Source: an uncultured Clostridium sp. (GTDB taxonomy: Bacteria; Bacillota; Clostridia; TANB77; CAG-508). Taken from it: a stretch of DNA of 64,000 bases. Both the position numbers and the translations under genes were made by a program. The notes beneath the pieces were generated by a model, which saw only the letters and a program-made list of their open reading frames with translations, was not told the origin of the DNA and searched no databases. The stretch is from positions 4,365-68,364 of the forward strand of contig CAMEWM010000001.1 in the NCBI GenBank assembly GCA_945946655.1. Direction: 5' to 3'. Of the stretch, positions 3,906 to 25,322 are shown in pieces. How positions within the stretch are numbered: the first letter of the stretch is position 1; every line of letters begins with the position of its first letter.

Positions 3906-3932
3906 ATTATATCCCCCATTTATAATATTCAT

Positions 3933-5084: not shown

Positions 5085-5085
5085 C

Positions 5086-6543
5086 TTATAATATTCCCTC
5101 CAACTCTTTTAGTTTTTGTTGGATTTCATCTTCCATTTCAATTACTCTTTTTAAAATAACTTTAGGACTCTCATATTCCTTCTTTTCTATTACTATTTCT
5201 TTATATTTATTAATTGATAAATCATAATCATTTTCTACTATTTCTTCTTTAGATACAAAGAAAGATTTTTCTGTTCTAGCTCTATTTTGTTCTTCTTCTG
5301 AACCTCTTTTGTTAAATCTATTTATAATATCAGGAATATCGTTTTCTTTTATTGGCTGTCTTTGATCATCTAAACTAAATCCATCCGCTGTCATATCATA
5401 AAACCATACTTTGTCTGTTCCGCCTTGCCCTGTTTTTGTAAATATCATAATTGCTGTAGAAACTCCTGCATAAGGTTTGAATACACCACTCGGCATTGAT
5501 ACAATTGCTTCTAATTTATGATTTTCTATTATTTCTTTTCTAATAGCTTTATGCTGATTTGAACTTCCAAATAGAACCCCATCAGGAACAATTGAAGCAA
5601 CTCTGCCTCCTTTTTTTAGTATTTTTAAGAATAATGCTAAGAATAATAATTCTGTTTTCTTAGATTTGTTTGTTATTCCTAATAAATCTTTAGAAATTGT
5701 TTCCAAGTCTACAGATCCTTTGAATGGAGGATTTGCTAATACTAATGTATACTTGTTTCTATCTTCATTATCTTCTCCTATAGAATTCTTGTATTCTATA
5801 TTTGGATTTTCAATTCCATGTTGCATTAGGTTCATAGCACTAATTCTTAACATTGTTGTATCCATATCAAATCCATAGAACATTGTATTATTAAAATGCT
5901 CTTTTTCTTCTTTATCATTGAATATTCCTTTATGATTTTTCCTTAAATACTCTCCTGCCTCAACTAAGAAACCTGCACTACCACAAGCAGGATCCACAAT
6001 GATATCTTGTGAATTAGGTTTCATAAGTTCAACCATCATCCTAATAATATGTCTTGGTGTTCTAAATTGCCCATTAGTACCTGCTGTAGATAATTTTGAA
6101 AGTAAATATTCGTAAACATCTCCCTTAGTATCTCTATCCTTCATAGGCAATCCATCAATACCTGTAACTACCTTTTGTAACATAAGCGGTGTTGGAACTA
6201 AAAATATTGCATCTTGCATATATTTTGCATAGTTAGAATTTTTCTCATTTCCTAATGATTTTATAAACGGAAAAACTTCATCTTGCATATTTTTAAACAT
6301 TTTTCCTGCTTCATAGTCTTTAAATACACTCCATCTACAATGTTGATGTGCTTCGTCAAAAATTCTATTTGTTTTAATTCCTATAAAAACTTCATCTTTT
6401 TCGTTTCTAATTTCTATATCATCTAATCCCTTTATAAATAGTAAATATGTTATTTGTTCAATAACTGATAAAGGATTAGTTATTCCACCTGTCCAGAAAT
6501 ATTCCCAAATTCTATCTATTTTATTTCTTACTTCTGTATCCAT
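5086..6543 (-). CDS. hsdM: Type I R-M N6-adenine DNA methyltransferase (HsdM)
   Basis: Motif I VDPACGSAGFL, motif IV LANPPFKG, N-terminal HsdM_N-like region. 1-nt gap to hsdS. Confidence 0.92.
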   Translation of the reverse strand: MDTEVRNKIDRIWEYFWTGGITNPLSVIEQITYLLFIKGLDDIEIRNEKDEVFIGIKTNRIFDEAHQHCRWSVFKDYEAGKMFKNMQDEVFPFIKSLGNEKNSNYAKYMQDAIFLVPTPLMLQKVVTGIDGLPMKDRDTKGDVYEYLLSKLSTAGTNGQFRTPRHIIRMMVELMKPNSQDIIVDPACGSAGFLVEAGEYLRKNHKGIFNDKEEKEHFNNTMFYGFDMDTTMLRISAMNLMQHGIENPNIEYKNSIGEDNEDRNKYTLVLANPPFKGSVDLETISKDLLGITNKSKKTELLFLALFLKILKKGGRVASIVPDGVLFGSSNQHKAIRKEIIENHKLEAIVSMPSGVFKPYAGVSTAIMIFTKTGQGGTDKVWFYDMTADGFSLDDQRQPIKENDIPDIINRFNKRGSEEEQNRARTEKSFFVSKEEIVENDYDLSINKYKEIVIEKKEYESPKVILKRVIEMEDEIQQKLKELEGIL

Positions 6544-8790: not shown

Positions 8791-9669
8791 ATGAAGTTAG
8801 CAAAAAAACTTAAATTATTGAGAGCAGAAAAAGGAATTACACAAGACACTCTTATAAAAGAAACTGGCCTTTCTGCTCAAGCAATTCGTAATTATGAGAA
8901 TGAAGATATGGATAGACTACCTAATACTGTTCAATTAAAAATACTTAAAGATTACTTTGGTGTAACATATGAATATCTATTAGATGATAATTGTGAAAAT
9001 AAAACACCAGAGTCTGTTAATATTGGAAAAAAATTAAAATTGTCAGACCAATCTCTTAATAGAATTACAGATCTACAAAATCATAATTATCAATATTTTC
9101 CTGAGGAAGGTATTTATTATAAAGAAGGAGTTAATGGTGAAAATTCATTTAATAGATGGTTGGAATCGTTTGACGAATTTAAAAGATTTTCTGTTAGACT
9201 TGATATATTTTATAATTTGAATAAGCTATTAGAAATAGCTCCATATTTCATGCATTTATCAGACTTATGCAAAAGCCTTGAAGATAGTTTTAATTCTGAT
9301 AAAGTATTTATTTCTAAGATCAATGATTTATTAGATAAAAAAATAGATGAATATAAATCTTGCTTTGAGGTAGAAGATAAATCTGATTTCCTAACAAATG
9401 AATTTTTCGAATTAACAAATCATTATAAAGAATATAAAGATTATTTAAATAAACATAAAAAAATTCCAGAGAAAGGATTATTTCTTATTTTAGATTATAT
9501 TAGTTCATCTGCTTCTATAATTTATGAAGATGCTTATAAAAATTTGAGATACTGTCAATATGAGATTTCTGAAATAATTAAAAATAATCTTATAAATCAA
9601 TCTGCTACTTTTGATGAAAATTTTATTCCTTCCGAAATCAAAAATATATTAAAGAAAGAAGGATTATAA
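8791..9669 (+). CDS. XRE-family HTH regulator with long C-terminal domain (repressor-like)
   Basis: N-terminus LRAEKGITQDTLIKETGLSAQAIRNYENE is an HTH_3 pattern. GGAGG RBS. Its stop is 1 nt from the int start. Confidence 0.75.
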   Translation: MKLAKKLKLLRAEKGITQDTLIKETGLSAQAIRNYENEDMDRLPNTVQLKILKDYFGVTYEYLLDDNCENKTPESVNIGKKLKLSDQSLNRITDLQNHNYQYFPEEGIYYKEGVNGENSFNRWLESFDEFKRFSVRLDIFYNLNKLLEIAPYFMHLSDLCKSLEDSFNSDKVFISKINDLLDKKIDEYKSCFEVEDKSDFLTNEFFELTNHYKEYKDYLNKHKKIPEKGLFLILDYISSSASIIYEDAYKNLRYCQYEISEIIKNNLINQSATFDENFIPSEIKNILKKEGL

Positions 9670-9670
9670 A

Positions 9671-10813
9671 ATGAGCGTAATGGAATTAACTAAAAACAAA
9701 AAATATAAAATTGAAGTTGTTCTTGGATACAATGGTGAAAGAAGAATTAGACATCTTGAAACTTTCTATGGTAAGAAAAGTGAAGCAAAGGCTTATGAAT
9801 TTGAGCTTAGAAAGAAGTTATTAAATGGTACTGATTTTCAAAAAAGAAATATGACCATAAAAGATTTAAGTGAAGAATATTTTAAATATAAACAGGACAC
9901 TATTGAAAAGAAAACTTATATTAATTATGGTAGAAGATTAAAATTAGTTATTAAACGAATTGGATATGTAAAAGTTAGAGAAATTAATATGAAAATTCTT
10001 GAAGATTTCTATCATTACTTAAGACATAAATATATTACAAGAAAAGGTACACCTCTTAGCCCTACTACAATCCAACACTATTATGCATTATTAAATGGTA
10101 TGCTAGAATATGCGGTTAAATGTGGATACAGAGATGATAATCCTAATAAAAAAATTGATAAACCTAAAAGAGCTAAACCAAAGAAAAATAGTTATACTTT
10201 AGAACAAGCAAAAAAATTGGTTTCTGTACTTCCAAATGAACCACTAAAATATCAAGCAATTATTCTTTTAGCTTTAGATTCTGGCTGCAGACGTGGTGAA
10301 CTTACAGGATTAACTTGGGATGATATTGATTTCAAAGATTTAAAAATTAATATTAATAAAACTACTCAATATGCCTATGGCGAAATATATGAAAAGGGAA
10401 CTAAATCAGCACATAGTGTAAGAACAAATTTCATTCTTCCCTATACTGCTGAAGTCCTAAAAAAATTTCAAAAAGAACAAATGGAAAAGAAATTACTTTT
10501 AGGCTCTAAATGGCAAGGAAGTAAAAGAGTTTTTACTACTGATTATGGTGCAGATATTCATCCAGATACTCTTACTAAAATAATGAAAAAAATTGTAGCA
10601 AAATACGATTTGCCACCGCTTACCCTTCATGGATTAAGACATACTAATGTATCTCTTATGATTTCTAAAGGCGTACAACCTCAAGTTATTAGTAGAAAAG
10701 TTGGACATTCAAGTATTCAGGTTACTGATCAATACTATTCTCATTTCTTCGAGGATGAGTTTAGAGATGCTACAAATTCAATTAGTGATATTTTTGCTGT
10801 CAACGAAAATTAA
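9671..10813 (+). CDS. Tyrosine recombinase / site-specific integrase
   Basis: Catalytic-region motifs DSGCRRGEL (Arg I) and HGLRHTNVSLMI...VGHSSIQVTDQYYSH (H-x-x-R ... H ... Y). N-terminal SAM-like domain. Confidence 0.9.
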   Translation: MSVMELTKNKKYKIEVVLGYNGERRIRHLETFYGKKSEAKAYEFELRKKLLNGTDFQKRNMTIKDLSEEYFKYKQDTIEKKTYINYGRRLKLVIKRIGYVKVREINMKILEDFYHYLRHKYITRKGTPLSPTTIQHYYALLNGMLEYAVKCGYRDDNPNKKIDKPKRAKPKKNSYTLEQAKKLVSVLPNEPLKYQAIILLALDSGCRRGELTGLTWDDIDFKDLKININKTTQYAYGEIYEKGTKSAHSVRTNFILPYTAEVLKKFQKEQMEKKLLLGSKWQGSKRVFTTDYGADIHPDTLTKIMKKIVAKYDLPPLTLHGLRHTNVSLMISKGVQPQVISRKVGHSSIQVTDQYYSHFFEDEFRDATNSISDIFAVNEN

Positions 10814-10842
10814 AATAGACGAGATTTTATATATGATCCCGC

Positions 10843-11746
10843 CTATTTTTTTACTTCATCAATAGATCTTTTTATTCTCATAAATCCCAAATAATTTGTC
10901 ATTTCTGGATACATTACGGATGTTGATGAAACTCCCATATATAAATAATTCATAAATCCTATAATATGTTCATACTTATTATATTGTATATTACTTCCTT
11001 CAAAGTTAATCTTATATTCACTTTTAAATGGTTGTAATATGCTATTTATAAGTTTTTTATTATTCATATATGGATAAAACATAAATTTATTTTCTCCTTG
11101 AAGCCCTTTATACATTATAGTTCCATCATTAATACTTAAAATCATGTTATGTCTTAAATAATAGTTTTCATCATTATTGTATATTTCATCCATCTCATTT
11201 ACTATATTTATATAGTCAAAATTAAGTTTATTACAAACGATAAATGTTAATATTTGATCTCGTATATTATCTACAGGGTTAAACTTTATTGTTCCACTAT
11301 CATTAAAAATATATGGATTATTGCTTTGAATCTCATTTCTCAATAATTTATTGTCTCGTAATTTTAATAACGCTTCTTTAAGATTATTTTTTGATAAATC
11401 TGATTTTACTTCTCCTATTGCAACTACACATTCAATTGGGAAAAACCTTTGTTTATTATTATTTTCTATTAACGGACAATTGTTCTTATCATATATTATA
11501 AGATCGCACTGTGTGCTTATTTTTCCTGTTGAAGTTATAATAAAACCATCACCAATTTCTAATCTTCCTGGAATAACATTTCTCAACAAATCTTTTGTCA
11601 ATTCTTCTCTATATCTTCCAAATTCTCCGCGGATGAATTAATTTTCCATCTCTATCAACAAATATATTTTTTGAATTTATTGTATAATTATCAACAAAAT
11701 TTTGTATTTTATCATCCAATATTGTTTGAAATATTTTATTACCCAT
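10843..11746 (-). pseudogene. PD-(D/E)xK nuclease-like protein (DUF6602-like by recollection), interrupted by a 1-nt insertion
   Basis: ATG at 11746 gives MGNKIFQTILDDK...DRDGKLIHP, then the frame breaks at CCGCGG (11627-11632). The next frame continues GEFGRYREELTKDLLRNVIPGRLEIGDGFII...CDLIIYD...AIGEVKS (D...E-x-K). Span length 904 = 3n+1. Confidence 0.55.
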
Positions 11747-12890: not shown

Positions 12891-12921
12891 AAAAAAATCA
12901 AGGAACTTTGAATCCCTTGAT
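12891..12921 (-). terminator. Rho-independent terminator downstream of the tRNA fragment
   Basis: Minus strand: stem ATCAAGG/CCTTGAT (12897-12903 with 12915-12921), 11-nt loop, then TTTTTTT. Confidence 0.6.
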
Positions 12922-12926
12922 AAATC

Positions 12927-12971
12927 TGGTTGCGGGGGTAAGACTCGAACTTACGACCTTCGGGTTATGAG
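12927..12971 (-). pseudogene. Orphan 3' half of initiator tRNA-Met (anticodon loop to CCA), att-site scar
   Basis: Minus strand reads CTCATAACCCGAAGGTCGTAAGTTCGAGTCTTACCCCCGCAACCA. This covers the CAT anticodon loop, T-arm GTAAG-TTCGAGT-CTTAC, and acceptor 3' strand plus ACCA. No complementary 5' acceptor strand or D-arm lies upstream. Confidence 0.75.
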
Positions 12972-13089
12972 GGTTACATAACGTATTTTATTAGATGTGT
13001 TGAATTGTATTGTATGCTAGTGATATTAGTACTTTGCTGGTTTTTTATTTAGTGTACAATTTTGTTAAAATTGGGGTGATTTTGAAAAT

Positions 13090-13202: not shown

Positions 13203-13305
13203 CTAATAGTAATTAAATTTATTTTTTACGATTTTGATTATTTTTTTAAATGAATTTTTATTACTATTTTAGATTTTTAATTAAATTTTGAAAGGAATGA
13301 TTTTT

Positions 13306-13611
13306 ATGGATTTAGATAATAAAGTTAATGATTTGATGAGAGAATGGATTATTTTTAGAGATGAGTGTTTGAGCAGAATTACTGAAGAAGATAAAGGACA
13401 TTTAATTGAGTTTGATAAGTATTGTGATAATATTTTGAAAAATGTTGCAAGTTGTAATAAGAAGTATGTTCAAAAGCAATTGGACAAGCTTGATGAGAAT
13501 TATCTTGATTATATTGGTTATTGGAATGATAAATATTATAGGGCTGGTTTTGGTGATTGCTTGAATTTGGTTATTATTAGTTTGGGTGGTGGTAAATTTG
13601 AAACTAGGTAA
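13306..13611 (+). CDS. Small hypothetical protein, paralogue of the next ORF
   Basis: ATG at 13306 behind AAAGGA. C-terminal QLDKLDENYLDYIGYWNDKYYRAGFGD matches QLDKLYDDFMRYLDYWNENYYRNGVID of the next ORF. Confidence 0.55.
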   Translation: MDLDNKVNDLMREWIIFRDECLSRITEEDKGHLIEFDKYCDNILKNVASCNKKYVQKQLDKLDENYLDYIGYWNDKYYRAGFGDCLNLVIISLGGGKFETR

Positions 13612-13636
13612 ATATGGTGTTTGAGCTAAGAAGTAT

Positions 13637-13972
13637 TTGGAAGAGTATAAGCCTTTTAAGTTTTCTCGTTTGGTTATGGATGGTTCTGTTATGGATTATT
13701 TGTTGGAGTTTGAATATCATTTGAAGGGTTATGCTAATTTGATTGAGTTTGAACTTAGAGAAAAGTTTCCTGCTCCTTCTGAGAATGAGAGTTTTGTTGA
13801 GCAGGTTAATTATATTCATATGATTCAGGAGATGGTTGATGAGTTTGTTCAGTTTCAGCTTGATAAGTTGTATGATGATTTTATGAGGTATCTGGATTAT
13901 TGGAATGAGAATTATTATAGGAATGGGGTTATAGATGGTTCTCAGATAGCTATGGGATGTTTTGAGGAATAA
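13637..13972 (+). CDS. Small hypothetical protein, paralogous C-terminal module
   Basis: TTG start in the track. Shares the YLDYWN-x-x-YYR-x-G module. The N-terminal half loosely recalls TnpV-type transposon proteins (low confidence). Confidence 0.5.
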   Translation: MEEYKPFKFSRLVMDGSVMDYLLEFEYHLKGYANLIEFELREKFPAPSENESFVEQVNYIHMIQEMVDEFVQFQLDKLYDDFMRYLDYWNENYYRNGVIDGSQIAMGCFEE

Positions 13973-13980
13973 AATTAATA

Positions 13981-14014
13981 CCGGAAGAATTTTAAATTTT
14001 CTTCCGGTGGTTTT
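13981..14014 (+). terminator. Rho-independent terminator
   Basis: Stem CCGGAAGAA (13981-13989) with TTCTTCCGG (13999-14007), followed by TGGTTTT. Confidence 0.65.
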
Positions 14015-14053
14015 ATGATACCAGAATATTTTTCGATTTTCTTCTAGTATTTC

Positions 14054-16633
14054 TTATATACCAGAAAAAGGTTCCAGTTTTTGTTCAAATATTAAATTAA
14101 TTAAGTCTTCTTTTTTCAAATCTTGTTTATATTCTATATTGTTTTGGCTTAATATTTCAACTATTTCTTCTTTTTCAAATGTTGTTAATTCACCTTTTAA
14201 TTGATCTTCTATTATCATTGAGCAATAATTATAGACTCTAGTAGTTTCCTCTTTTTCAAAAGGTCTATAATGTCTTTTTATTTTTATATATAAATTTGTT
14301 TTATCTTTCACATCATTATTTGTTAACATTGTTATTATTTCATTAACCTTTTCTTTTTTCTTATCTTCATTTTCTATTTCAATAACGCATAATATATATG
14401 TTATAAATGTCTCAAATTTGTTTTTTTCTTCTTTTATATATAATAATTTACATTCTAAAAACATATTAATAATGTATTCTTTCATAGAATCATCTATAAT
14501 ATTTTCATTTCGTATCATTATATATTCATAGAACTCATCTATCTCATATTGGATCATCCCTTCATCATAATATATCACATATTTATTATATATTCTTAAT
14601 GTTTGTATTAATATCTCTTTATATCTTTTAGTCAATTCTTCATCATTTAGATTACTAATTCTTAATGATATATCTATTATCAATTCAAGTATAGCATTTA
14701 TATCTGTATCTATAGTTACATAATAATTAGTTTTTCTTAAGAACACTATATTTTTTATTGTTTCTTCTTGCTCTAAAAATTCTAATAACTCATCAAATAT
14801 ATCTTCTCTATATAAAATGTCTTTATTAATTTTATTATCTTTAACTATATTAAAATTATAGTAATTTCTATAAATATTGCATATGGATATCGGTTCTAAA
14901 CAATTAAACATATGATTTAAAGCGATTCTTGCCCCATTATATTTCTTTATAAATTTTATATTAGTAGTAAGCATTGTTAATATTTTTTCAAGAGCTTTAT
15001 ATATCATTTCTAGCTTTACTCTTTTATACTTAGTTTCACTTTCTAATAATGTATATATTGGTATAATTAATAGCTCAATAGCATTTCTTAAGTTTATTTC
15101 GGATTCTTGATTTATTGCTTCTTTACAAATTACTATTACAGTGTCTACATACATTCCATCAATTAAACTTACAAATTTATCCCCATTTTTTATAAATATC
15201 TCTTTCATTATTCCTGTTGTCTCAAATAATAAATTTTCATTATTTAACTCCACAATGTCTTTAATATTATTTAAATAATAAGTTAATATGATTTTAATAG
15301 TTAGCTCTATATTATCCTTATTATTGATATATTTATTTTCTGATCCTAAAATAATTAATGCATAATATGTCTTTTGAATAATCGATATAATATCTCTGTT
15401 CTTTTCTTTTAAAGCTATTTTAGAGTATTCTTGTAAATATTCTAATATATATTTCTCTATAAAAATATCATTTTCCCCAGTCGATATAATCTCTGCTAAT
15501 AGCGGTTCTTCTAAATGGGTTATCTTATTTTTTCTTCTTTCTAACCTTTCTTTTGCAATATTAACATACACTTGCATAGCTTCTCTAAAGGCTATTGTGT
15601 CATTTATATTGTCTCTTACTATCATATTAATACATTGTACATATGCGGTATATATTTGATTGAATACTTCCATAAAACGTATATCGCTTTCTATTTTTTG
15701 GTTATTTCTTTCAGTATATTTCTTTATAATTTTGTATTCTTTTTCCAAGCATTTTGTAGTAACTTTTATCTTCTTTTCGCATTCTTTTATTATTTTTACT
15801 TTATCCAATTTATTCGATATAACTACTAAGTCAAGTCCAAATAATATAAAAATATATGTCAAACAGCAAATGTAAATTGATGTACTAATATAGTTATTAC
15901 AAATAATGTTAGACATAAATATAAATAAAATAGAAATTATTACTACTACAATATATTGTAAAATATCATATTTTTTATCATTTAATATCTTATCCATAAC
16001 TGAATTCATATATTTATATAATATTTGCTGTTTATATGTATTTAAAGAAAATATTAAAGCAACCATTCCGATTAGAGCTATTCCTGTGTCAGAATATATA
16101 TTATCTACTTTTAATTCAAAATCTATTATTACTAATAGTTTACTTATTATACATATCAAAATTATAAGTATTAATAGACTTATAAAAAGATAAATCGTTT
16201 TATATTGATTAAACTTTTCTAGTTCAAACAAAGCAATTCTTCTTTTTATTGCAAGTATTTTTTCTCCTATAAGCTTTTTTATTTTCTTATTATTCTTTAT
16301 TATTTTAATCGTTATAATAATTATAATAATACCAATTGCACAACCTAAAATTATCGTTTTATATGTATAAATAAATTTTGTAATCCATATAAAAAAACTA
16401 CAAACATAGAATATTAATGAAAATACTATTAATCGTATAGTCCAATGTGTAATAGAACCTATTCCTTTACCAGAAATAATATCATTATTATATAATTTTC
16501 TAACGCATTTCCATGCTATTCTATACGCAATTAAACCTATTATTGCCATAGCTATATAATTATATATAATGTTATCAAATAATATATATTCTCCTGTTAC
16601 TATTTCAAAAATTGGTTTTAGTATTTGTTTCAA
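14054..16633 (-). CDS. Large orphan membrane protein (859 aa): N-terminal ~8 TM segments plus ~570-aa all-helical cytoplasmic region
   Basis: Long uninterrupted ORF. Hydrophobic stretches through about residue 290. No catalytic motif recognised. Confidence 0.7.
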   Translation of the reverse strand: MKQILKPIFEIVTGEYILFDNIIYNYIAMAIIGLIAYRIAWKCVRKLYNNDIISGKGIGSITHWTIRLIVFSLIFYVCSFFIWITKFIYTYKTIILGCAIGIIIIIITIKIIKNNKKIKKLIGEKILAIKRRIALFELEKFNQYKTIYLFISLLILIILICIISKLLVIIDFELKVDNIYSDTGIALIGMVALIFSLNTYKQQILYKYMNSVMDKILNDKKYDILQYIVVVIISILFIFMSNIICNNYISTSIYICCLTYIFILFGLDLVVISNKLDKVKIIKECEKKIKVTTKCLEKEYKIIKKYTERNNQKIESDIRFMEVFNQIYTAYVQCINMIVRDNINDTIAFREAMQVYVNIAKERLERRKNKITHLEEPLLAEIISTGENDIFIEKYILEYLQEYSKIALKEKNRDIISIIQKTYYALIILGSENKYINNKDNIELTIKIILTYYLNNIKDIVELNNENLLFETTGIMKEIFIKNGDKFVSLIDGMYVDTVIVICKEAINQESEINLRNAIELLIIPIYTLLESETKYKRVKLEMIYKALEKILTMLTTNIKFIKKYNGARIALNHMFNCLEPISICNIYRNYYNFNIVKDNKINKDILYREDIFDELLEFLEQEETIKNIVFLRKTNYYVTIDTDINAILELIIDISLRISNLNDEELTKRYKEILIQTLRIYNKYVIYYDEGMIQYEIDEFYEYIMIRNENIIDDSMKEYIINMFLECKLLYIKEEKNKFETFITYILCVIEIENEDKKKEKVNEIITMLTNNDVKDKTNLYIKIKRHYRPFEKEETTRVYNYCSMIIEDQLKGELTTFEKEEIVEILSQNNIEYKQDLKKEDLINLIFEQKLEPFSGI

Positions 16634-16657
16634 TAGTTTTCCTCCATAATAATTCTA

Positions 16658-17278
16658 TTATTTATTGTTTTTATTTTTGGGCAAATAATTTTTAATATCA
16701 TTAACAAAAAATGAAAGTAAATCTCCTTGCTTAAGTCCCTTTCTCTTTTGTCCCATATCCTTTCTAATTTCAAATACTATTTCTTCTAGTAAAAATAAAT
16801 TTTGCATAGCTATTGTTTTATCTTGTGAAAGTTCTCTAAATTTAATCCATTTTTTTATTACCCTGCTTGATCCCCATAATGTAAGTGACTCTGAAAAAGA
16901 AGATATATCATTTATCATTTGCTCTTGAGTATATTCTTCTTGATTATTTCTAGTGCTTTTTTGCAATTTGTATACCATTGATATAAAAGCTTTATACGGT
17001 TCTTCTCTTTTTTCATACAAATATCTTTTTGTTATTTGCCTGTATTCTATAAATTTAGATACAATTGAACTAATCAATACTGTTACTATAGATATACCAC
17101 CTGTAATAATTGCTACAATAACTACACTATCCATACTAGATGTAATACCACCTATTTTTTCTATTCCTTTTATTAATAAAATTCCTATATGTTTTATTAA
17201 TAAATATATTAATAAAAATAAAATTGCTACAATTGCTAAAGAATATATCATATTCAATACTTCTTTAAATTTCTTCAT
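16658..17278 (-). CDS. Orphan membrane protein (206 aa, 2 TM plus soluble C-terminal domain)
   Basis: ATG at 17278 behind AGGGTGA. Candidate own promoter TCGACA-N16-TATGAT upstream. 24-nt gap to the 859-aa ORF. Confidence 0.65.
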   Translation of the reverse strand: MKKFKEVLNMIYSLAIVAILFLLIYLLIKHIGILLIKGIEKIGGITSSMDSVVIVAIITGGISIVTVLISSIVSKFIEYRQITKRYLYEKREEPYKAFISMVYKLQKSTRNNQEEYTQEQMINDISSFSESLTLWGSSRVIKKWIKFRELSQDKTIAMQNLFLLEEIVFEIRKDMGQKRKGLKQGDLLSFFVNDIKNYLPKNKNNK

Positions 17279-17407
17279 AAAAATCACCCTTTTTATACTA
17301 TCATACTTTATTTAAATATTTTGTCGAAACCTGTCTTTTCTTATCAAAAAAGCAAAAAAATTATGTAACTTTCAATTACTTTCATATTTTGCTTTTCATC
17401 AGTATAT

Positions 17408-18640
17408 TTAATTATTTTTTTCATCAAGCAACCAATCCAACACATTTATCTTCTTTATTCCATCAAAGTCTGCATCTAAATCATCATCTAATGTCAAAAT
17501 GTATTTAGGATAATTATCATTTATTTTCCTCAATGGAGTTAATTCTCTATCTAAAATTTTATTATCTCCTTCATTTTCTCCTCTAGTTGTTAATGCAACT
17601 TGATAATATATAGTATTTTCTGGCTTTCTTGCTACGAAATCAACTTCTAAATCATCATATTTTCCTATATATACTTCATATCCTCGTCTCAACAATTCAA
17701 GATACACAACATTTTCTAATATATGTCCCATATCTCGGCCAGAGCCTTGTCCTAACATATAATATCTTAATCCTATATCTATCGCATAATATTTTTCTTG
17801 AGTTTTTAAAAACTCTTTTCCTTTAATATCATATCTGTTGGCTTTAAATATTAAATAACTATCTATTAATGCATCTACATAGTTTGAAATTGTATTATAT
17901 GATGAATTTTTTTCTATTCCTTCAATATTATCACTTATGCTTTTCATACTCGTTCTATTCCCTATGTTGTCATACAAATATTTTGTAACTCTTTCTAAGA
18001 CATTTTTATCTGTTATTCCTTTTCTTTGCATTACATCTTTAAATAAAATAGTGTTATATATTCCATCTAAAAATAAATTTATATTTTCTGGGTTTATTTT
18101 ATATAATTCAACTGCTTGAGGAAATGAACTATATCTTAGATAATCTCTAAATTTTCTTGACAAGTCTGTTTTATCTTCAAAGCTTGATAAATATTCTTTA
18201 AACGATAATGGCAACATTTTTATTTCTATATATCTTCCTGTAAGCAATGTTGCTAATTCTGAAGATAATAAATATGCATTTGAACCTGTTATATATAAGT
18301 CTACATCTTTATTTATAAATAGGCTATCTACTGTTTTTTCAAATTCGTTTACATTTTGAATCTCATCTAGAAAAACGTATGTCTTTTTTCCTTTTACTAG
18401 TCTTTCTTTTATATATTCGTATAATTTCTTTCTGTCTTGTAATTCCTCATAATCTGCGTTTTCAAAATTTATTGATATTATTTGCTTTGCTTCTACTCCA
18501 TTTTCTTTTAAGTAATCTTGAAAAATTTCAAGCAATGTTGATTTACCACATCTTCTTATTCCTGTGATAACTTTTATTATTTGTTGATCTTTGAAATTTT
18601 TTAATATAGATAAATAATTTTCTCTACTTATTCTTTCCAT
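17408..18640 (-). CDS. AAA-type ATPase with DUF4143-like C-terminal domain
   Basis: ATG at 18640 behind AGGAGG. Walker A GIRRCGKST, Walker B VFLDEIQ. The size and layout match the common ATP-binding protein/DUF4143 family. Confidence 0.8.
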   Translation of the reverse strand: MERISRENYLSILKNFKDQQIIKVITGIRRCGKSTLLEIFQDYLKENGVEAKQIISINFENADYEELQDRKKLYEYIKERLVKGKKTYVFLDEIQNVNEFEKTVDSLFINKDVDLYITGSNAYLLSSELATLLTGRYIEIKMLPLSFKEYLSSFEDKTDLSRKFRDYLRYSSFPQAVELYKINPENINLFLDGIYNTILFKDVMQRKGITDKNVLERVTKYLYDNIGNRTSMKSISDNIEGIEKNSSYNTISNYVDALIDSYLIFKANRYDIKGKEFLKTQEKYYAIDIGLRYYMLGQGSGRDMGHILENVVYLELLRRGYEVYIGKYDDLEVDFVARKPENTIYYQVALTTRGENEGDNKILDRELTPLRKINDNYPKYILTLDDDLDADFDGIKKINVLDWLLDEKNN

Positions 18641-18782
18641 AAATCTCCTCCTAACTATAATAATTATACTATCTTTTATCATTATAGTCAAGTTTTTTCA
18701 AAATTATGAAAAAACTTTTGTTTTTTTAGTAGTTCTTTCAAATACCCCTTAATTTTTTTTACTCTCTAGCTAACTATTAAAC

Positions 18783-18828
18783 AAAAAAATATCAATAAAT
18801 TTAAAAACTTTCTCAATTTTATTGATAT
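18783..18828 (-). terminator. Rho-independent terminator ending the SNF2-to-Res operon
   Basis: 11-bp perfect stem ATATCAATAAA/TTTATTGATAT (18789-18799 with 18818-18828), followed on the minus strand by TTTTTTT. Confidence 0.65.
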
Positions 18829-18851
18829 TTTATCTTCTTCATTCTTTTCTC

Positions 18852-21800
18852 CTATTCTATCGGAACTACTCCTGTAACTAAATTAATTAAATTTTCATAA
18901 CTATCTACAACACCATATTTAACTGCTCCATTACTTATTGCTTTAAAGTGTTTTCTAGCACAAGCAATTTTTCCTTGCTCTGCACCTTTTAGTTGAGCTG
19001 ATTGCATACTTCCTTTTGTTTCTGCAATAAAGTAAATGTATTTTATATCTTTATTATCAAAAACTAATGCCCAGTCAGGATTATAATTTCCAAAGGGTGT
19101 TCTTATTTTAAATCCGTTCGGAAGTTTTGCATATATGGTAACTTCTCCTTGTTCTAGTTTTCTAGCAAATTCCATTTCAATAGTAGAATCAGTTATTACA
19201 TAATCATAAATGTGTTTCTTAACTTCAAGTGCATTTACTCCTAATTTTCCTGTTAGATTATTTTCTGTGAATATTTCATTACTGAATTTATCTTCTGTTT
19301 TGTTATAAGTAATTCCATCAATTATAGTAGTTGCTTTTTCATCATTTATTAAATTAGATGCTTTTCTTATAAATTCTTCAGGATTATACTTAAATTGTTC
19401 AAATACATCTTGTCTTATATTCTTCAAAATTTCTATAATTGTATGTCTTGTAAGTCCTGTATCTGTTGCAATGCTTCCTATTAAGTCATATTTAGTTGTT
19501 ACTGGTACAAAATCATCATAAACTTCGTTTCTAACTTTTCCAACTATCATAGAATCTTCATCTTTTAGTTGGCTTACACTCATTGTATTTCTTTGTTCTC
19601 CTTCAGTTATTCTGACTCTCATTTTGCTTATAATTAGTTTATCATTTAAAGCTTTTATTGCTTTTTCTATTAGTTCATTAGAATCAAAATCAACTTCATA
19701 TATAGATTTTACATTTATTTTATTCCATAACTCTTGAAATTCTTTTTTATAGAAATTATCATTTAACTTTAGATTGCTAATGTTGTTTTTATTTGCATTA
19801 CCTATTTCAATTTTTGTTTCTGTAAATAGTGATGTTATAAGTTTTGTATATTCTTCTATATGATCTTGCATTACTTCAGGAATACTAATTGCATTGTTTG
19901 CAATATCTTCTTTTAGTTTGTGTGTGATGTTATCATTTTCATCAATGTAATCATTTTTCATAAAATCTCTGTAAATTTTATTTACTACTGTTTCATCTAT
20001 AGGTAATGATTTTCCATCTTTATTTACTAACTCTCTATCAATAAATATTTTTTGCTCAAACTTATCAAATGATTTTCTTGATAAGTTTGCTGATATTTCG
20101 CTTTGTAATGCTTTTGCAAATGAATCATAACTTTCACTTGCTATAACAGTAAGATTATTGATATTAAAGAAATCATCTTCAAGTTCTCTATAATCCATTC
20201 TATCTCCATTGCTATTAACACAAATACGAAGTCCTCTACCTATTTCTTGTCTTTTACTTATTTCAGAATTACTTTTCTTTAAAGTACATATTTGGAAAAT
20301 GTTTGGATTATCCCAACCTTCCCTTAATGCTGAGTGAGAAAATATAAATCTTACAGGTTCTGATAATGATAATAATCTTTCTTTATCTTTCATAATTAAA
20401 TCGTAAGCATCTTCATCAGAACTTGTCCCCTCTGCTTTATCATCAATCTTAGAATCAATAAATATTTGTTCATCTTCAGATAATCCTTTTGATGCTTTTT
20501 TATCTATTGAAAAATAACCACTGTGTACTTTTTTTCCATTTAATGAATCTAAATATTTTTTATAATCTTCATCTATGAAATTATAAAATTCATTATATAT
20601 GTTATTATATTCTTCTTCAAATATTTTTGCATATTCTCCATTATGTGCTTTTTTATTTTCATCATATACTTTGTATTTGGCTACTTCATCTATAAAGAAT
20701 AAAGATAATACTTTTATACCCTTTTTATAATATTCTCTTTCTTTTTCAAAATGTGATCTTATAGTTTCTCTTATTTGTATTCTAGCCATATAATCTTCTT
20801 CTGCATCTCCAATTATTTGACCAGTTGTAATTTCTTTTCCATTTGTAAATTTTACAATATCATAAGACATATTTTGAGCATTTATTTCACTTATCACATA
20901 GCCTCTATATTCTTCTAATTCACCTGATAATTCAAATAAATTTGCTCCTGCACTAAACTTTTTAGTTTTCTTTGTTACTCCTGTAGATGATTTTGTTTCT
21001 ATTTCAATATATGCAACAGGATCAGACTTACTTATTTCTACCCTATCCAAATATAAATATGTATCTTCTGATTTATTATGTAATAATTCTATTCCTTTTA
21101 CATTTATTTTTTTAACAAGTTTTTGATTATAAGCATCTACTGCATCAAGTCTATATACCATATTATATTTGAACTTTTCTTTGTGAGTAGCAGAATAACG
21201 AATTATAAATAAAGGATTGAACTCTTTAAGCATTTCTTCTGTTTTTCCCATCTTTTGTGGTTCGTCTATAATAAGTATAGGATTTGTTGCTTTTAATACA
21301 TCTATAGGTTTTCTTGATTGTAGTTCATCAAGTTCTTCATATATTCTTCTATTATTTTTTGATTTTGTGTTAAATGCTTGATAATTCATTATCATAACTT
21401 GTATGCTATTATCTTCAGCAAAATTATTTATATTGGCTATATTTGAAGAATTATTTGAATTATATACAAAAAATCTTATTTTCTTCTTGTATAATTCTTG
21501 AAAATGTTCCTCTGTTATTTGAAAAGATTTTAGTACACCTTCTCTAATTGCAATGCTTGGAACAATAACAATAAATTTACTCCATCCATAAGCCTTATTT
21601 AACTCATACATTGTTTTTATATATGTATAAGTTTTTCCAGTACCTGTTTCCATTTCAACAGAATAGTTTTCATAGCCTTGATTATCTGTGTAATCTAAAT
21701 TATTTTGTTTTTGTACTGTTCTTATATTTTTCCTTAATTCTTCTGATGTAAGCATTATTTTATTGTTTCCAAAAGAAATAATATCTTCAACAGAATTTTG

Positions 21801-21975: not shown

Positions 21976-22770
21976 TCACATTATTCCAAAAAGTCCGAGT
22001 ATTCCACTAGCAATTAAATTTGTTCCTGTTCCCATTGCAATTTCTTTTAATAATTCTACTACCTTATTCTTATTTTTCTTATTACAACTTTCTTTTATAT
22101 TTTCAATAATTTTTTCACTTAGATTACTTTCTTTTTGCATTAGATCAAGTTTTTCTAACACGATTTCAAATAATTTATCATCATTCACTTGATTAAAATT
22201 CGTTTGATTTATTATTCCATTATTAGTATTACAATAAATATTTTGAGTAATAATCTTATTCTCTGTATTTTTATTTTCTGTTATAATAGGCTCAATGTTT
22301 TCATAATAAATAAAGGCTACTCCATTTTGTCCACCTTTTATAATCGTTTTTTCGTTTTCGAATTTTATAATATTATTTTCTTTACAAAATTTCAAAATAT
22401 TTGCTCTTGCTATATCATCCATATTCAAAAATATCTTTTTAAAATCTTCTCTTTCTAATGCTCCTTTTTCATAAATAATCTCCTTCATTTGCACAGCCTT
22501 GTAATTCAAAAAGTCCGTTCTTCCTTTTTGAGTCAGTCTCGGAAAATGATTATATTGTGTCTGTCCAAGAATTCCTCTTAATATTTCTATACAATTTTCA
22601 TCTACCAAGTCTCTATTTTCTTGCCAAAATTCTGAAATATCAAAGTCTTTAGCTATTATACTATCAAGTATTTTTATCAACTCTTGATTATCTTTTACTA
22701 TTCTTTTTTCTATTTCAATATCTTTAGAATATATATAATTAAAAATATCTATATTTAATTCTGTTATCAT
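21976..22770 (-). CDS. Orphan 264-aa protein with C-terminal hydrophobic tail, embedded between mod and res
   Basis: Start overlaps the mod stop (ATGA, 22767-22770). 8-nt gap to res. The C-terminus AMGTGTNLIASGILGLFGIM looks like a tail anchor. No known motif. Confidence 0.6.
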   Translation of the reverse strand: MITELNIDIFNYIYSKDIEIEKRIVKDNQELIKILDSIIAKDFDISEFWQENRDLVDENCIEILRGILGQTQYNHFPRLTQKGRTDFLNYKAVQMKEIIYEKGALEREDFKKIFLNMDDIARANILKFCKENNIIKFENEKTIIKGGQNGVAFIYYENIEPIITENKNTENKIITQNIYCNTNNGIINQTNFNQVNDDKLFEIVLEKLDLMQKESNLSEKIIENIKESCNKKNKNKVVELLKEIAMGTGTNLIASGILGLFGIM

Positions 22771-24718
22771 ATTACATTTACCTCTGTTTCTTGTGATATT
22801 TTTTTTATTCTTTCAAATGTATTTATTTTATCACTATCAGTTTTAAATGAACTTTCTTTAAATACTATTTTCAAAGGGTTACATTTACAAATTTCATCTA
22901 CTATGTTTATATCTATGGTATCATCAAAACATGCGACAAGTGAATTATTTTCCACAAAATAAACATTATTATTAAATATTTTTCTTTCTTCTATTGATAA
23001 ATCTAATGTTAATCCTAAATCTAATATAACTTGTGTCAACAAATCTTCTGATGTTCTATCTTCTTTTATATTAGATTCAAATATATTTAGTTGAGCTTGT
23101 TGTAAATCGGTTGGAGCATAATATACATCTTTCATATTAGATGAATCCACCTTATAAACTCTAAATCCAATGTCCAAATTAGCATTTTTTATCTTTTTAC
23201 CAACATTTTTTATTCTTTTTTCACCCAAATCACATATAGTTTCGTTGTCTTTAACACCATCTTCTATCAAGCGTTCTGGCAATTGAACCATTATAAATTT
23301 TATTTTTTTACTGTATTCATTGTTGTACTTTAAGCATGCATGCGCAGTAGTTGCACTGCCTGAAAAGAAATCTAAAACATAATATTCATCATCATTTAGC
23401 CATTTAATTAATTGTTCTATCAGTCTAACTGGTTTTTTTCCATTTTTAAATTTTATATTTCCTTCATCATCTATATTTCTCATGTCAAAGTGAAACCCTT
23501 TCCATAAATCTCCTCTATATGTACACCTAGTATAATTTGACATGTAGTTATCTGATTGCTTTAAGCAGTCTGAAAACTTTATATACATTCTTATCGAACC
23601 AGTTGCCGTCTTAAATAATAGCTTATTATCATACAAAAACACTTTATTTTTTTCATATTTTTCTAAAATAGATTCATCTATTTTTTTACTATATGGTGCA
23701 TCGCATATAATTTCGGAGCTATCTCGTTGTACATATATTTTTTAAAATCATTATCAATTTGCATTAAAGTATTTATATTATCATTTGTTAATTTTAAATT
23801 ATACCTTAAAAATTTATCACTTATTGAGTGATTTGATTTTAAATATTCTATTAAATTGTATGTGCACATTTTTTCGTCAATAACAGTTTTATAATGTGTA
23901 TCAAATAACTCTCTCATTTCATCAACAAGTGGGCACTTTTCTTTTGTATCTTTATCTTTATTTTTTTTGTATATTAATATATAGTCTTTAACTTTAACAA
24001 ATGTTTTACTCACATGAGCCGCCTTAGTTCCAAAAACCTCTCCACTTTCAATGGTCAAAATTGTCACAAAATTATTTTCTCCATATATTTCATCACATAT
24101 AATTTTTAAGTCAGCAACTTCATTATCATCTATGCTTATGAAAATATAGCCATCATCTCTTAATAGATTTCTAGAAATTTTTAATCTAGAATACATCATT
24201 GCAAGCCAATTACTATGAAATTTACCATTACTTTCCTGATTAGATACTAGTTTATTATCATATTCATCTATCTGTCCTGATTCTTCTAATTCATTCTCAT
24301 TTATGAATTTATCATTATAAATAAAATCATTTCCTGTATTATATGGCGGATCAATATAAATACATTTAATCTTATTCAAATATGATTCTTGTAATATTTT
24401 TAATACTTCTAAATTATCTCCCTCAATATAAATATTTTTTGTATTATCAAAGTCAACAGATTTTTCCTTAACTGGTCTTAAGGTTTTATTGCAAGGAGTA
24501 TTAGCATTTACTAATGCCTCTTTCTTTCCAACCCAAGATAATTGGTATCTTTCTTTTCCATCATCTATTATATCTTTAGATAATTCTTGTTTTAGCATAT
24601 CAAAATCTATTTTTCCTTCACTTATGCAGTCAGGAAATAATTCGGATATCTTACTAATATTATCTTTTACAATATCTTTTGACTTCATATCTAATTTATG
24701 TATTTCTTCATTATTCAT
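22767..24718 (-). pseudogene. mod: Type III (beta-class N6A/N4C) DNA methyltransferase Mod, split into two ORFs by a frameshift at an A7 tract
   Basis: N-terminal ORF 23678-24718 has motif IV IYIDPPYNTG. C-terminal ORF 22767-23642 has motif I DFFSGSATTAHA. Order IV-TRD-I is typical of Type III Mod. Adding one A to the A7 run (23681-23687) fuses the frames. Confidence 0.85.
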
Positions 24719-25322
24719 TATTACTTAATTCCTCCTTTTGCTTTTTTAATTCTAATATATTCTTATTCAATTCTACTTTTTTATTAAATTGTTTTTCTGA
24801 TTTCATTTTGTTTTCAAGTCTTTCTATTTCTTTTTGAACTTCTTTCAATTTCTTGCCTTTTTCTAATTCTTCGTCTATATTATTATTTTGTTCTGAAATA
24901 TTTGTAACACTTCTTATGATATTTTCATATACTGCATTTAAATCAATTCCATTAAAGTTAAATTCTATTTTTTCATTCCAATTTGTAAAGTAAATATCAT
25001 CATTGTGTTTTATTGCATATTGTACTTCATCCTTATAGCATATTTCAAATAAAATAATATATGGTATATTCTTTGTAATCACTTTAATTATATTTTGACA
25101 ATTTACTTTTTCTTTCAATGTAAGTTCAAATATTTCTATTTCTTCAACATTTTCCGTTTTTGATATATTCAATGTATCTTCTGATATTTTATATTTCCAA
25201 TATATTTTATCAATTTTATCAACAAATTCTTGTTTTAAATTTGAAGATAAACTAACCTTTTCATAAAATATTTTCTTTGGTATAAATTTATCTACTATAC
25301 ATTCTTTAGGAAGTTCTATCAT
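24711..25322 (-). CDS. DUF4391-like protein
   Basis: 203 aa. The N-terminus IPKKIFYEKVSLSSNLKQEFVDKIDKIYWKYKISEDTLNI matches my recollection of DUF4391, a family typically next to SNF2 helicase and methylase genes. Start overlaps the SNF2 stop by 1 nt. Confidence 0.6.
   Translation of the reverse strand: MIELPKECIVDKFIPKKIFYEKVSLSSNLKQEFVDKIDKIYWKYKISEDTLNISKTENVEEIEIFELTLKEKVNCQNIIKVITKNIPYIILFEICYKDEVQYAIKHNDDIYFTNWNEKIEFNFNGIDLNAVYENIIRSVTNISEQNNNIDEELEKGKKLKEVQKEIERLENKMKSEKQFNKKVELNKNILELKKQKEELSNNE

What the first reader, a model, noticed from the sequence alone, without database searches (positions are those of the whole stretch)
14054..17287. Orphan two-gene membrane cassette (206 aa + 859 aa) inside the defence island
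A 2-TM protein with a soluble tail (16658-17278) is followed 24 nt later by an 859-aa protein. That larger protein has about 8 N-terminal TM helices and a ~570-aa all-helical cytoplasmic region. The pair has a candidate promoter of its own (TCGACA-N16-TATGAT at about 17295-17330) and a terminator region at 13981-14050. It sits between a DUF4143 ATPase/Type III-like operon and the element end, a typical position for defence cargo. I recognise no enzymatic or known defence-family motif. Large membrane-embedded sensor/effector proteins of this kind are typical of abortive-infection systems.
Basis: inference. Interest (0 to 1): 0.65.

Follow-up and report, generated by a model that had tools for sequence, protein, structure and literature searches.

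The report
Shuffling membrane modules in defence islands
Two real membrane-protein genes sit in a bacterial anti-virus gene island, but they are a loose pairing of three separately mobile modules that travel with restriction enzymes and other defence genes rather than a fixed two-gene machine, and their function is still untested.

Summary
Both ORFs are real. S (16658-17278) has 2 TM helices and a helical tail. B (14054-16633) has 7 TM helices and a 592-aa all-helical cytoplasmic domain. The gap is 24 nt, with good ribosome-binding sites and a terminator hairpin. dN/dS is about 0.1-0.25 in all but one comparison. No Pfam, PADLOC, NCBIfam or PHROG family fits, and there is no PDB or viral fold match.

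"Orphan two-gene cassette" is only partly right. S is widespread (385 clusters, several Firmicutes orders) and usually occurs without B, next to R-M, OLD, DdmD-like or helicase-TIR genes. In one clade its downstream partner switches between B, the single-gene candidate PDC-S53 helicase and a 305-aa protein.

B is a fusion. Its first ~120 residues match more than 150 stand-alone ~124-aa membrane proteins, many sitting between hsdM and hsdS of Type I R-M operons. Its core is very rare (17 clusters). Distant B relatives lack S.

The S-B block recurs in four defence neighbourhoods, and both genes are dead in a 98%-identical sister strain.

Best reading: defence-island membrane modules, probably anti-phage or anti-plasmid, with a facultative link. 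The mechanism is inferred, not shown.

The parts
16658..17278 (-). S: 206-aa membrane protein with 2 N-terminal TM helices (residues 10-28, 51-69) and a highly conserved cytoplasmic helical-bundle tail (motifs LTLWGSS and EIRKDMGQ..GL.QGDLL.FF.ND).
   Evidence: ORF. Topology. AF2 pLDDT 78. 385 homologous clusters. Conservation. dN/dS 0.09-0.28 (0.50 against L030 at very low divergence).
14054..16633 (-). B: 859-aa membrane protein, TTG start, 7 TM segments, N-terminus outside and C-terminus inside. It is a fusion of Nmod with a rare core.
   Evidence: ORF. Topology. AF2. 17 clusters. Fusion shown. dN/dS 0.20-0.25.
16274..16633 (-). Nmod: residues 1-~120 of B, with 3 TM segments and a near-invariant GSxxHWxxR signature. 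It is homologous to stand-alone ~124-aa proteins.
   Evidence: Exhaustive HMMER search. Alignments. Stand-alone contexts.
15809..16216 (-). Core membrane region of B (residues ~140-275, 4 TM segments), conserved in all family members including those lacking Nmod.
   Evidence: BLASTP against P0015. Invariant T183-G189 and neighbours. TM segments.
14057..15808 (-). Cytoplasmic all-alpha (solenoid-like) domain of B, residues ~276-859. The most conserved stretches are ND.FIEKYI.EYL.EYS.IAL..KNRDI and NNENLLFET.
   Evidence: AF2 pLDDT 80-94 over residues 390-720. Only generic alpha-solenoid Foldseek hits (TM at most 0.22). Invariant columns.
14087..14173 (-). C-terminal helix-extended-helix (HeH/SAP-like) motif of B, residues ~821-849, conserved in distant members. 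This is a lead only.
   Evidence: Pfam HeH scores 17.3 bits, below the 28.9 cut-off. Conserved pattern in P0015-17, P0138 and P0145.
16641..16645 (-). GGAGG ribosome-binding site 8 nt upstream of B's TTG start, within the 24-nt S-B spacer. Conserved in all S-B loci.
   Evidence: intergenic sequences.
17300..17327 (-). Promoter-like match TCGACA-N16-TATGAT upstream of S. It is not distinguishable from chance.
   Evidence: 54 matches found against 57.4 expected.
13980..14008 (-). Terminator-like hairpin (10-bp stem, U-rich tail) between B and the convergent TnpV-like genes.
   Evidence: -21.7 kcal/mol, z = -4.68.
13288..13972 (+). Two convergent small genes (107 and 111 aa; the second is weakly TnpV-like). 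They are conserved downstream of the B homologue in L008 at 55-62% identity.
17408..18691 (-). Upstream neighbour: AAA_14 + DUF4143 ATPase, the PADLOC single-gene candidate PDC-S01. It is intact in the sister strain where S and B are dead.

Best explanation
**What it is.** S and B are two genuine inner-membrane proteins, probably co-transcribed. They are carried as cargo in the defence region of a mobile element. That element has a replisome-organiser and DnaC-like module at one end and TnpV-like genes plus a tRNA fragment at the other.

**Three mobile modules.** The pair is built from three modules that move independently, each found beside restriction-modification and other defence genes in unrelated genomes:
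1. S is a widespread 2-TM protein with a conserved cytoplasmic helical bundle.
2. Nmod is a 3-TM unit of about 120 residues. On its own it is typically a small gene overlapping hsdM by 4 nt and lying directly upstream of hsdS in Type I R-M operons. In one lineage it follows a Panacea-type antitoxin-like gene.
3. The core is a rare unit of 4 TM segments plus a cytoplasmic alpha-solenoid, ending in an HeH-like motif.

**Most likely function (inferred, not shown).** It is a membrane-based anti-phage or anti-plasmid module. B would be a self-contained sensor-effector. Its cytoplasmic solenoid would sense or regulate, and its membrane part, above all Nmod, would act on the membrane on activation. 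S would be a separate defence-linked membrane module that is co-expressed with B here but can work without it.

**Nature of the link.** The S-B link is facultative, not obligate.
For: **The genes are real and constrained.**

**No known family fits.**, 33/36, 47/51, 76, 80/83.

**Defence context of S-B in four different neighbourhoods.**
- Type III R-M + PDC-S01.
- STAND-like protein + methylase, with GmrSD downstream.
- Type I R-M + DUF4268, and Type II methylase + DUF4268.

**S without B.** It lies next to MutH/Dcm R-M, helicase-TIR, HsdR and Mrr, OLD nuclease, a DdmD-like protein and a Type I-like methylase operon.

**Partner switching.** S is paired with full-length PDC-S53 in three contexts. 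Partners are interleaved in the S tree, and homology breaks at the S stop codon.

**B is a fusion.** Residues 1-120 hit more than 150 stand-alone proteins, while the core has about 6 full-length 50% clusters.

**Stand-alone Nmod.** 28 of 52 genes directly abut R-M genes. About 23 lie between hsdM and hsdS with a 4-nt overlap onto hsdM. In L059-61 it follows a MqsA-HTH/Panacea protein. Panacea antitoxins commonly neutralise small TM depolarising toxins (PMC8832971).

**B relatives sit in defence contexts without S.**

**Joint decay.** In a 98%-identical sister strain S has a frameshift and B has two nonsense codons, while the DUF4143 gene is intact.

**Topology.** The large domain is cytoplasmic.
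Against: - There is no functional data of any kind. Transcription evidence is limited to short low-depth metatranscriptome contigs.
- No proper genome-wide defence-enrichment score was computed. The context counts come from a few dozen loci, many of them repeated samplings of the same lineages.
- Some S contexts are not obviously defence-related: after BioB in L022, and unannotated flanks in L018, L019, L021, L023-25.
- The solenoid fold is generic and carries no recognisable sensor or enzymatic site.
- The AF2 model of the membrane part of B is of low confidence.
- The Panacea link rests on one lineage.
- B, PDC-S53 and the 305-aa protein share no detectable domain, so nothing shows that S interacts with any of them.
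Confidence: 0.5

Rival explanations
1. One reading: S and B form an obligate two-component abortive-infection system. They act together as a membrane sensor and effector, and depolarise the cell on infection.
For: - The spacer is 22-24 nt, with a conserved GGAGG and TTG start and no terminator between the genes.
- The S-B block recurs in four different neighbourhoods.
- Adjacency is kept although S and B alleles have been recombined. Against L014, dS is 0.88 for S and 0.18 for B. Against L030 it is 0.08 for S and 0.15 for B.
- Both genes are inactivated together in L110 while the neighbouring gene is intact.
Against: - S has 385 clusters against 17 for B.
- Most S genes have no tightly linked downstream gene.
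- B relatives P0015 and P0016 have no S, and P0012 has an unrelated 317-aa gene instead.
- Close S alleles pair with PDC-S53 or the 305-aa protein.
- B, H and T share no docking domain.
Confidence: 0.2
2. The function is not immunity in the abortive sense but R-M-associated or element-associated membrane biology. These small membrane modules could tether or regulate restriction complexes at the membrane where foreign DNA enters. Alternatively they could serve entry exclusion or maintenance of the mobile element. B would be a membrane scaffold with a DNA-binding HeH-like tail.
For: - Stand-alone Nmod overlaps hsdM by 4 nt and lies directly upstream of hsdS, as a subunit-like operon member would.
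- S often follows R-M genes closely: 18 nt after the Dcm methylase gene in Parvimonas, and 104 nt after HsdR in L020.
- The HeH-like motif at B's C-terminus is conserved.
- The cassette sits in a mobile element beside TnpV-like genes that are conserved with it.
- Membrane association of Type I enzymes such as EcoKI has been reported. This rests on my own knowledge and could not be verified in the held library.
Against: - S and B also sit beside non-R-M defence genes such as PDC-S01, PDC-S53, OLD, GmrSD, helicase-TIR and DdmD-like proteins.
- In the window the cassette is separated from the Type III R-M by another gene.
- The HeH match is below the Pfam threshold.
- Neither module was found on plasmids, phages or viral contigs.
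Confidence: 0.2
3. Restriction-guard model (PrrC-like logic). The membrane modules are latent toxins held in check by the neighbouring R-M or defence proteins, and are released when a phage anti-restriction factor disables these.
For: - Nmod is embedded in Type I R-M operons, in one case beside a HEPN AbiU2 gene.
- In one lineage Nmod follows a Panacea antitoxin-like gene.
- The PrrC precedent is a latent effector associated with the Type Ic enzyme EcoprrI and activated by a T4 inhibitor of it (PMC1484252).
Against: - The argument is purely positional. No interaction or toxicity data exist.
- B in the window is not inside an R-M operon.
- There is no similarity to PrrC or RloC: no ABC-ATPase or nuclease domain was found.
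Confidence: 0.1
4. Spurious or decaying ORFs without function.
For: Both genes are pseudogenes in L110. Truncated forms P0013 and P0014 are common. A 1-nt deletion variant at 14421 is seen in one run.
Against: - dN/dS is 0.09-0.28 in all but one comparison (0.50 for S against L030, at very low divergence), at synonymous divergence up to dS about 1.4.
- Intact ORFs occur in many contigs.
- S shows strong cross-order conservation.
Confidence: 0.02

Closest known systems
Kiwa (KwaA/KwaB)
   Same: It is a two-gene defence-island system with a small multi-TM protein and a larger partner. It is described as a membrane-embedded supercomplex that senses membrane changes caused by phage infection and conjugation (PMC11785009).
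   Different: There was no sequence hit to any PADLOC or Pfam model. In this locus the large protein is itself membrane-embedded, with 7 TM segments and an alpha-solenoid, rather than a soluble DUF4868 protein. The pairing here is facultative.
PrrC / restriction-linked ORFs embedded in Type I R-M loci
   Same: The stand-alone relatives of B's N-terminal module are embedded in Type I R-M operons. PrrC is likewise linked to a Type Ic R-M enzyme, kept latent by it and activated by a phage anti-restriction factor (PMC1484252).
   Different: No ABC-ATPase or anticodon-nuclease domain is present. These are small membrane proteins. B in the window is not inside an R-M operon. No interaction or activation has been shown.
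PanT membrane toxins of Panacea (PanA) toxin-antitoxin pairs
   Same: In L059-61 the stand-alone Nmod follows a MqsA-HTH/SocA_Panacea protein. Validated PanT toxins with TM helices depolarise the membrane (PMC8832971).
   Different: No Panacea gene lies next to S or B in the window. There is no sequence relationship to described PanT clusters, and toxicity is untested.
PADLOC candidate single-gene systems PDC-S53 and PDC-S01
   Same: They occupy the same islands. PDC-S53 takes exactly B's slot, 24-56 nt downstream of close S alleles, in three neighbourhoods. PDC-S01 is the upstream neighbour in the window.
   Different: S and B themselves match no PDC model. PDC-S53 is a soluble SF1 helicase with no domain shared with B. 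I found no paper characterising PDC-S53, and PDC-S01 is only mentioned in surveys.
RexAB, Zorya ZorAB, and 2-TM effectors such as SLATT, CBASS or Pycsar TM effectors
   Same: They share the general logic of membrane proteins in defence systems that collapse membrane function on infection.
   Different: No hit to any such Pfam or PADLOC model. There is no cyclic-nucleotide, MotAB-like or RexA-like partner nearby.

Membership tests
Any PADLOC-DB v2 defence family (includes Zorya, Abi families, PDC candidates and, to my knowledge, Kiwa) | Significant match of S or B to a family HMM | tested here: not met
   0 families for both proteins at E <= 0.01, while the neighbours hit strongly (REase_III 8.7e-293, PDC-S01 1.6e-154).
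Any Pfam-A / NCBIfam family (including SLATT, holins, transporters) | Score above the curated cut-off | tested here: not met
   nothing above cut-off; none of the 64 S-family members reaches a threshold; stand-alone and fused Nmod proteins have no family.
Phage protein families (PHROGs), e.g. holins or superinfection exclusion | Match to a PHROG, and presence in phage genomes | tested here: not met
   only phrog_17948 (unknown function) at 3.7e-4 for S; none for Nmod. There were no tblastn hits in 50,697 phage records and none in IMG/VR.
Kiwa | KwaA-like TM protein plus KwaB (DUF4868) partner | tested here: not met
   No DUF4868 or Kwa hit in S, B or the neighbours.
Panacea (PanAT) toxin-antitoxin | Adjacent antitoxin with the SocA_Panacea domain (PF13274) | tested here: not met
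   The window neighbours carry no Panacea domain. It is met only for stand-alone Nmod relatives in L059-61.
Panacea (PanAT) toxin-antitoxin | Toxicity of the TM protein, neutralised by the antitoxin | not testable with these tools
   This needs expression assays.
PrrC/Rlo-type restriction-linked guard | Gene embedded within a Type I R-M operon | tested here: inconclusive
   It is met for stand-alone Nmod (about 23 loci between hsdM and hsdS). It is not met for B in the window, which lies two genes downstream of a Type III res gene.
PrrC/Rlo-type restriction-linked guard | ABC-ATPase N-domain plus anticodon-nuclease C-domain | tested here: not met
   No such domains were found.
PrrC/Rlo-type restriction-linked guard | Latency through association with the R-M enzyme, and activation by a phage anti-restriction factor | not testable with these tools
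   This needs biochemistry or genetics.
Obligate two-gene operon (the S-B 'cassette') | Co-occurrence of both genes across the families' range | tested here: not met
   385 S clusters against 17 B clusters. S occurs without B in most loci. B occurs without S in L006-L010.
HeH/SAP nucleic-acid-binding motif (PF12949) | Score above the gathering threshold | tested here: inconclusive
   It scores 17.3 bits against a 28.9 cut-off, but the pattern is conserved in 35-39%-identical members and the AF2 model shows helix-loop-helix at 821-849.

The most novel reading that the evidence does not exclude
S and Nmod represent an unrecognised class of small membrane modules that are wired into restriction-modification and other DNA-targeting defence operons. 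Nmod would act as a fourth, membrane subunit of certain Type I R-M systems (hsdM-Nmod-hsdS). S would act as a shared membrane partner for interchangeable downstream proteins: B, the PDC-S53 helicase and the 305-aa protein. These modules would either position nucleic-acid defences at the membrane site of DNA entry, or act as membrane 'kill switches' guarding those defences. B would be the fused, self-contained version.
Probability: 0.15. Interest if true: 0.8.

Novelty: new variant of a known kind. Interest (0 to 1): 0.55.

Why it matters
If these modules are functional, they add uncharacterised membrane components to the defence repertoire of gut Firmicutes, which is poorly sampled experimentally.

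The more general point is the small membrane protein gene between hsdM and hsdS, overlapping hsdM by 4 nt. Type I R-M systems are textbook three-subunit enzymes. A conserved membrane component would bear on an old question: whether and how restriction is organised at the membrane where foreign DNA enters, or is backed up by a suicide module.

The S/PDC-S53 pairing also suggests that a catalogued 'single-gene' candidate may have an overlooked partner.

All of this can be tested directly with ordinary cloning and phage or plasmid challenge.

Tried and rejected
**Family searches.** Pfam, PADLOC, NCBIfam and PHROGs gave nothing for S, B, T or Nmod.

**Structure-based searches.**
- PDB sequence and profile searches with A1, A2 and A3 gave only spurious TM or low-complexity hits.
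- Foldseek of the S model gave a generic four-helix bundle, with best E = 0.46 against PDB and 0.096 against BFVD.
- Foldseek of the B model gave only designed repeats and TPR/ARM/HEAT solenoids, with TM-score at most 0.22.

**Mobile-element collections.**
- tblastn against 50,697 phage and 72,556 plasmid records found no match.
- IMG/VR scans for Nmod and S found none.

**Remote homology between partners.** hhalign found none: S against T 0.6%, B against PDC-S53 0.6%, B against T 0.2%. I therefore dropped the ideas that T is a diverged S and that the partners share an S-docking domain.

**RNA features.** ARAGORN and Rfam found no RNA gene in 8-20 kb. The tRNA-like stretch is a 3' fragment present once.

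**Expression.** Only contig-level metatranscriptome traces were found, too weak to define a transcription unit.

**Literature.** I found no paper on a membrane gene between hsdM and hsdS, or on PDC-S53. The EcoKI membrane-localisation literature could not be retrieved. One related-loci run failed because alignment A3 was too diverse, so I repeated it with A4.
Full report
**1. The observation**

- B runs 16633 to 14054 on the minus strand (859 aa). It has a TTG start 8 nt downstream of GGAGG.
- S runs 17278 to 16658 (206 aa from ATG). An AGGGTG ribosome-binding site lies 7 nt upstream of the ATG. The 209-aa GTG alternative lies inside that site, and homologues begin MxKK.
- The spacer is 24 nt.

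Other checks:
- The region is 21-22% G+C, so an 859-codon ORF is not a chance event.
- Hydropathy gives 2 TM segments in S and 7 in B. K/R-rich loops place S's tail and B's 592-residue C-terminal domain in the cytoplasm.
- AF2 models are all-alpha. S has pLDDT 78. B has pLDDT 69, rising to 80-94 over residues 390-720.
- A 10-bp hairpin with a U-rich tail at 13980-14008 is significant, z = -4.7.
- The promoter-like hexamers at 17327-17300 exist, but such matches are at chance density: 54 against 57 expected.
- Both genes are under purifying selection. dN/dS is 0.20-0.25 for B and 0.09-0.28 for S in all but one comparison. The exception is S against L030 (0.50), at very low divergence.

**2. Setting**

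Reading along the minus strand, the island contains:
1. A replisome-organiser and DnaC-like pair (30239-28886).
2. An HKD+Snf2 helicase, DUF4391, a split Type III mod gene, a 264-aa ORF with no family hit (21976-22770), Type III res, and a DUF4143 ATPase (PDC-S01).
3. S and B.
4. Two convergent TnpV-like genes.
5. A 51-nt tRNA 3' fragment ending in CCA at 12925-12975, with its own terminator.

A separate Type I R-M lies at 555-6543. An integrase and an HTH gene lie at 8791-10813. The 'defence island in a mobile element' description is sound.

**3. No known family**

- S and B match nothing above threshold in Pfam, PADLOC, NCBIfam or PHROGs.
- They match no PDB sequence.
- Foldseek gives only a generic helical bundle for S and generic alpha-solenoids for B.
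- Neither occurs in phage or plasmid collections or in IMG/VR.

**4. The pair is not an obligate cassette**

S has 385 clusters at 90% identity. B has 17, even when searched with a profile.

S without B. S relatives come from Clostridia, Parvimonas, Anaerococcus, Eubacterium, Mogibacterium and a Bacilli MAG. They mostly have no tightly linked downstream gene. They sit next to:

| Neighbour |
|---|
| MutH/Dcm R-M pair (gap 18 nt) |
| Hachiman-like helicase-TIR protein |
| HsdR, Mrr, AbiEii-like ATPase |
| OLD nuclease |
| DdmD-like protein |
| Type I-like methylase operon |

B without S:
- P0015 and P0016 (35-39% identity, 746-749 aa) have no upstream S.
- P0012 (65% identity) is preceded by an unrelated 317-aa 2-TM protein, T.

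Partner switching. Within one S clade the gene 0-56 nt downstream is B, T (L013), or a ~910-aa SF1 helicase. That helicase is a full-length match to the single-gene PADLOC candidate PDC-S53, E = 4e-290. In the S tree the partners are interleaved, and DNA homology ends at the S stop codon. B, PDC-S53 and T share no detectable domain.

**5. Evidence that S-B is still a unit in its own lineage**

- The S-B block, with a 22-24-nt spacer and a conserved GGAGG and TTG, occurs in four different neighbourhoods.
- S and B alleles have been recombined relative to each other, yet adjacency is retained. Against L014, dS is 0.88 for S and 0.18 for B. Against L030, dS is 0.08 for S and 0.15 for B.
- In L110, which is 98.3% identical over 4.7 kb, both genes are dead while the adjacent DUF4143 gene is intact. 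S carries a 1-nt deletion at window position 17213. B carries nonsense codons at 505 and 700 and a 3' truncation.

These points fit co-function. They are also compatible with simple block inheritance and decay.

**6. B is a fusion**

An exhaustive HMMER search of 1.84 billion representatives found only about 6 full-length 50% clusters for residues ~110-853. Residues 1-120 (Nmod) matched more than 150 stand-alone proteins of 110-135 aa, with E-values down to 1e-38. They also matched a few proteins in which the same module precedes unrelated C-termini (286-412 aa). Nmod carries a near-invariant GSxxHWxxR signature. It has no Pfam or PHROG family.

In 62 metagenomic loci there are 52 stand-alone Nmod genes.
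- 28 of them directly abut R-M genes.
- About 23 lie between hsdM and hsdS with a 4-nt overlap onto hsdM. A TIR protein or HsdR often lies further downstream. These loci are not independent samples.
- Other contexts are HsdM-Nmod-AbiU2(HEPN)-HsdS, Dcm+265 aa-Nmod, two methylases flanking Nmod, and MqsA-HTH/Panacea-Nmod.

Panacea antitoxins commonly neutralise small TM toxins that depolarise the membrane (PMC8832971). B relatives without Nmod also lack S.

**7. Mechanism (inferred)**

All three modules keep company with restriction and other nucleic-acid defences. None is phage-borne.

The most economical reading is a membrane-based anti-phage or anti-plasmid function.
- B would be a sensor-effector fusion. 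Its cytoplasmic solenoid ends in a conserved HeH/SAP-like motif, which is below the Pfam threshold, and would sense or regulate. Nmod and the core TM helices would act on the membrane.
- S would be a separate module that is co-expressed here.

Rivals:
- An obligate S+B abortive-infection pair.
- A role in tethering or regulating restriction complexes at the membrane, or in element biology.
- A PrrC-like guard logic (PMC1484252).

None can be decided without experiments.

**8. Novelty**

No membership in any known family was found. The nearest analogies are functional only: Kiwa (PMC11785009), PrrC and restriction-linked ORFs, PanT toxins and PDC candidates.

I rate it a new variant of a known kind, namely defence-island membrane modules. 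The hsdM-Nmod-hsdS arrangement and the S/PDC-S53 pairing are the most interesting by-products.

Noticed in passing
L075-L109 (e.g. L080:6001-6375, L086:6001-6375): A ~124-aa 3-TM protein gene, homologous to B residues 1-120, lies between hsdM and hsdS of Type I R-M operons in many human-gut contigs and overlaps hsdM by 4 nt. A DUF234 ATPase often lies upstream, and a TIR protein or HsdR downstream.
   Followed up: partly
L011:8001-11414, L012:8001-11398, L118:6001-9320: Close S alleles (85-90% identity) lie 24-56 nt upstream of a full-length PDC-S53 helicase in three different neighbourhoods. PDC-S53, catalogued as a single-gene candidate, may therefore have an overlooked membrane partner.
   Followed up: partly
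L059-L061 (e.g. L060:4913-7327): Stand-alone Nmod follows a MqsA-HTH/SocA_Panacea antitoxin-like protein after a 71-nt gap, and is overlapped by an unknown 312-aa gene. This is a possible toxin-antitoxin arrangement.
   Followed up: no
window 12897-12975 (-): A 51-nt 3' fragment of a tRNA (T-arm and acceptor stem ending in CCA) is followed by a terminator hairpin. It is present once in the window, and ARAGORN finds no intact tRNA. It is probably an att-site remnant marking the element boundary.
   Followed up: partly
window 22767-24718 (-): The Type III mod gene is split into two ORFs of 346 and 291 aa. They match positions 3-313 and 378-621 of one PADLOC MTase_III model, so the gene is interrupted around the target-recognition region. 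This could be a frameshift, phase variation or a pseudogene.
   Followed up: no
L110:7500-11432 versus window 14136-19789: The sister strain carries pseudogenised S and B. A rearrangement joins the truncated 3' end of B to a duplicated copy of the 3' end of Type III res (window 18846-19789).
   Followed up: yes
window 13288-13972 (+); L008:11508-12081: Two small convergent genes (the second weakly TnpV-like) are paralogous to each other (40% identity over 43 aa). They are conserved at 55-62% identity downstream of the B homologue in L008, which suggests they travel with this cargo region.
   Followed up: partly
window 555-6543 (-), 8791-11601: A complete Type I R-M (HsdM 485 aa, HsdS 383 aa, HsdR 1125 aa with DUF4145 and EcoEI_R_C) lies here. 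Next to it are an HTH gene, a tyrosine integrase and a DUF6602 protein. This may be a second island or element abutting the first.
   Followed up: no
window 24711-30239 (-): An HKD+Snf2 helicase (PADLOC C3a139) and DUF4391 lie directly upstream of the Type III R-M. They are preceded by Phage_rep_org_N and DnaC/IstB-like genes. L046 also has a Phage_rep_org_N gene upstream of its R-M/DUF4268/S-B block, which suggests a related element type.
   Followed up: no
L040-L047: A DUF4268 protein (376 aa) immediately precedes S-B in two otherwise different R-M neighbourhoods. A three-gene block DUF4268-S-B may move together.
   Followed up: no
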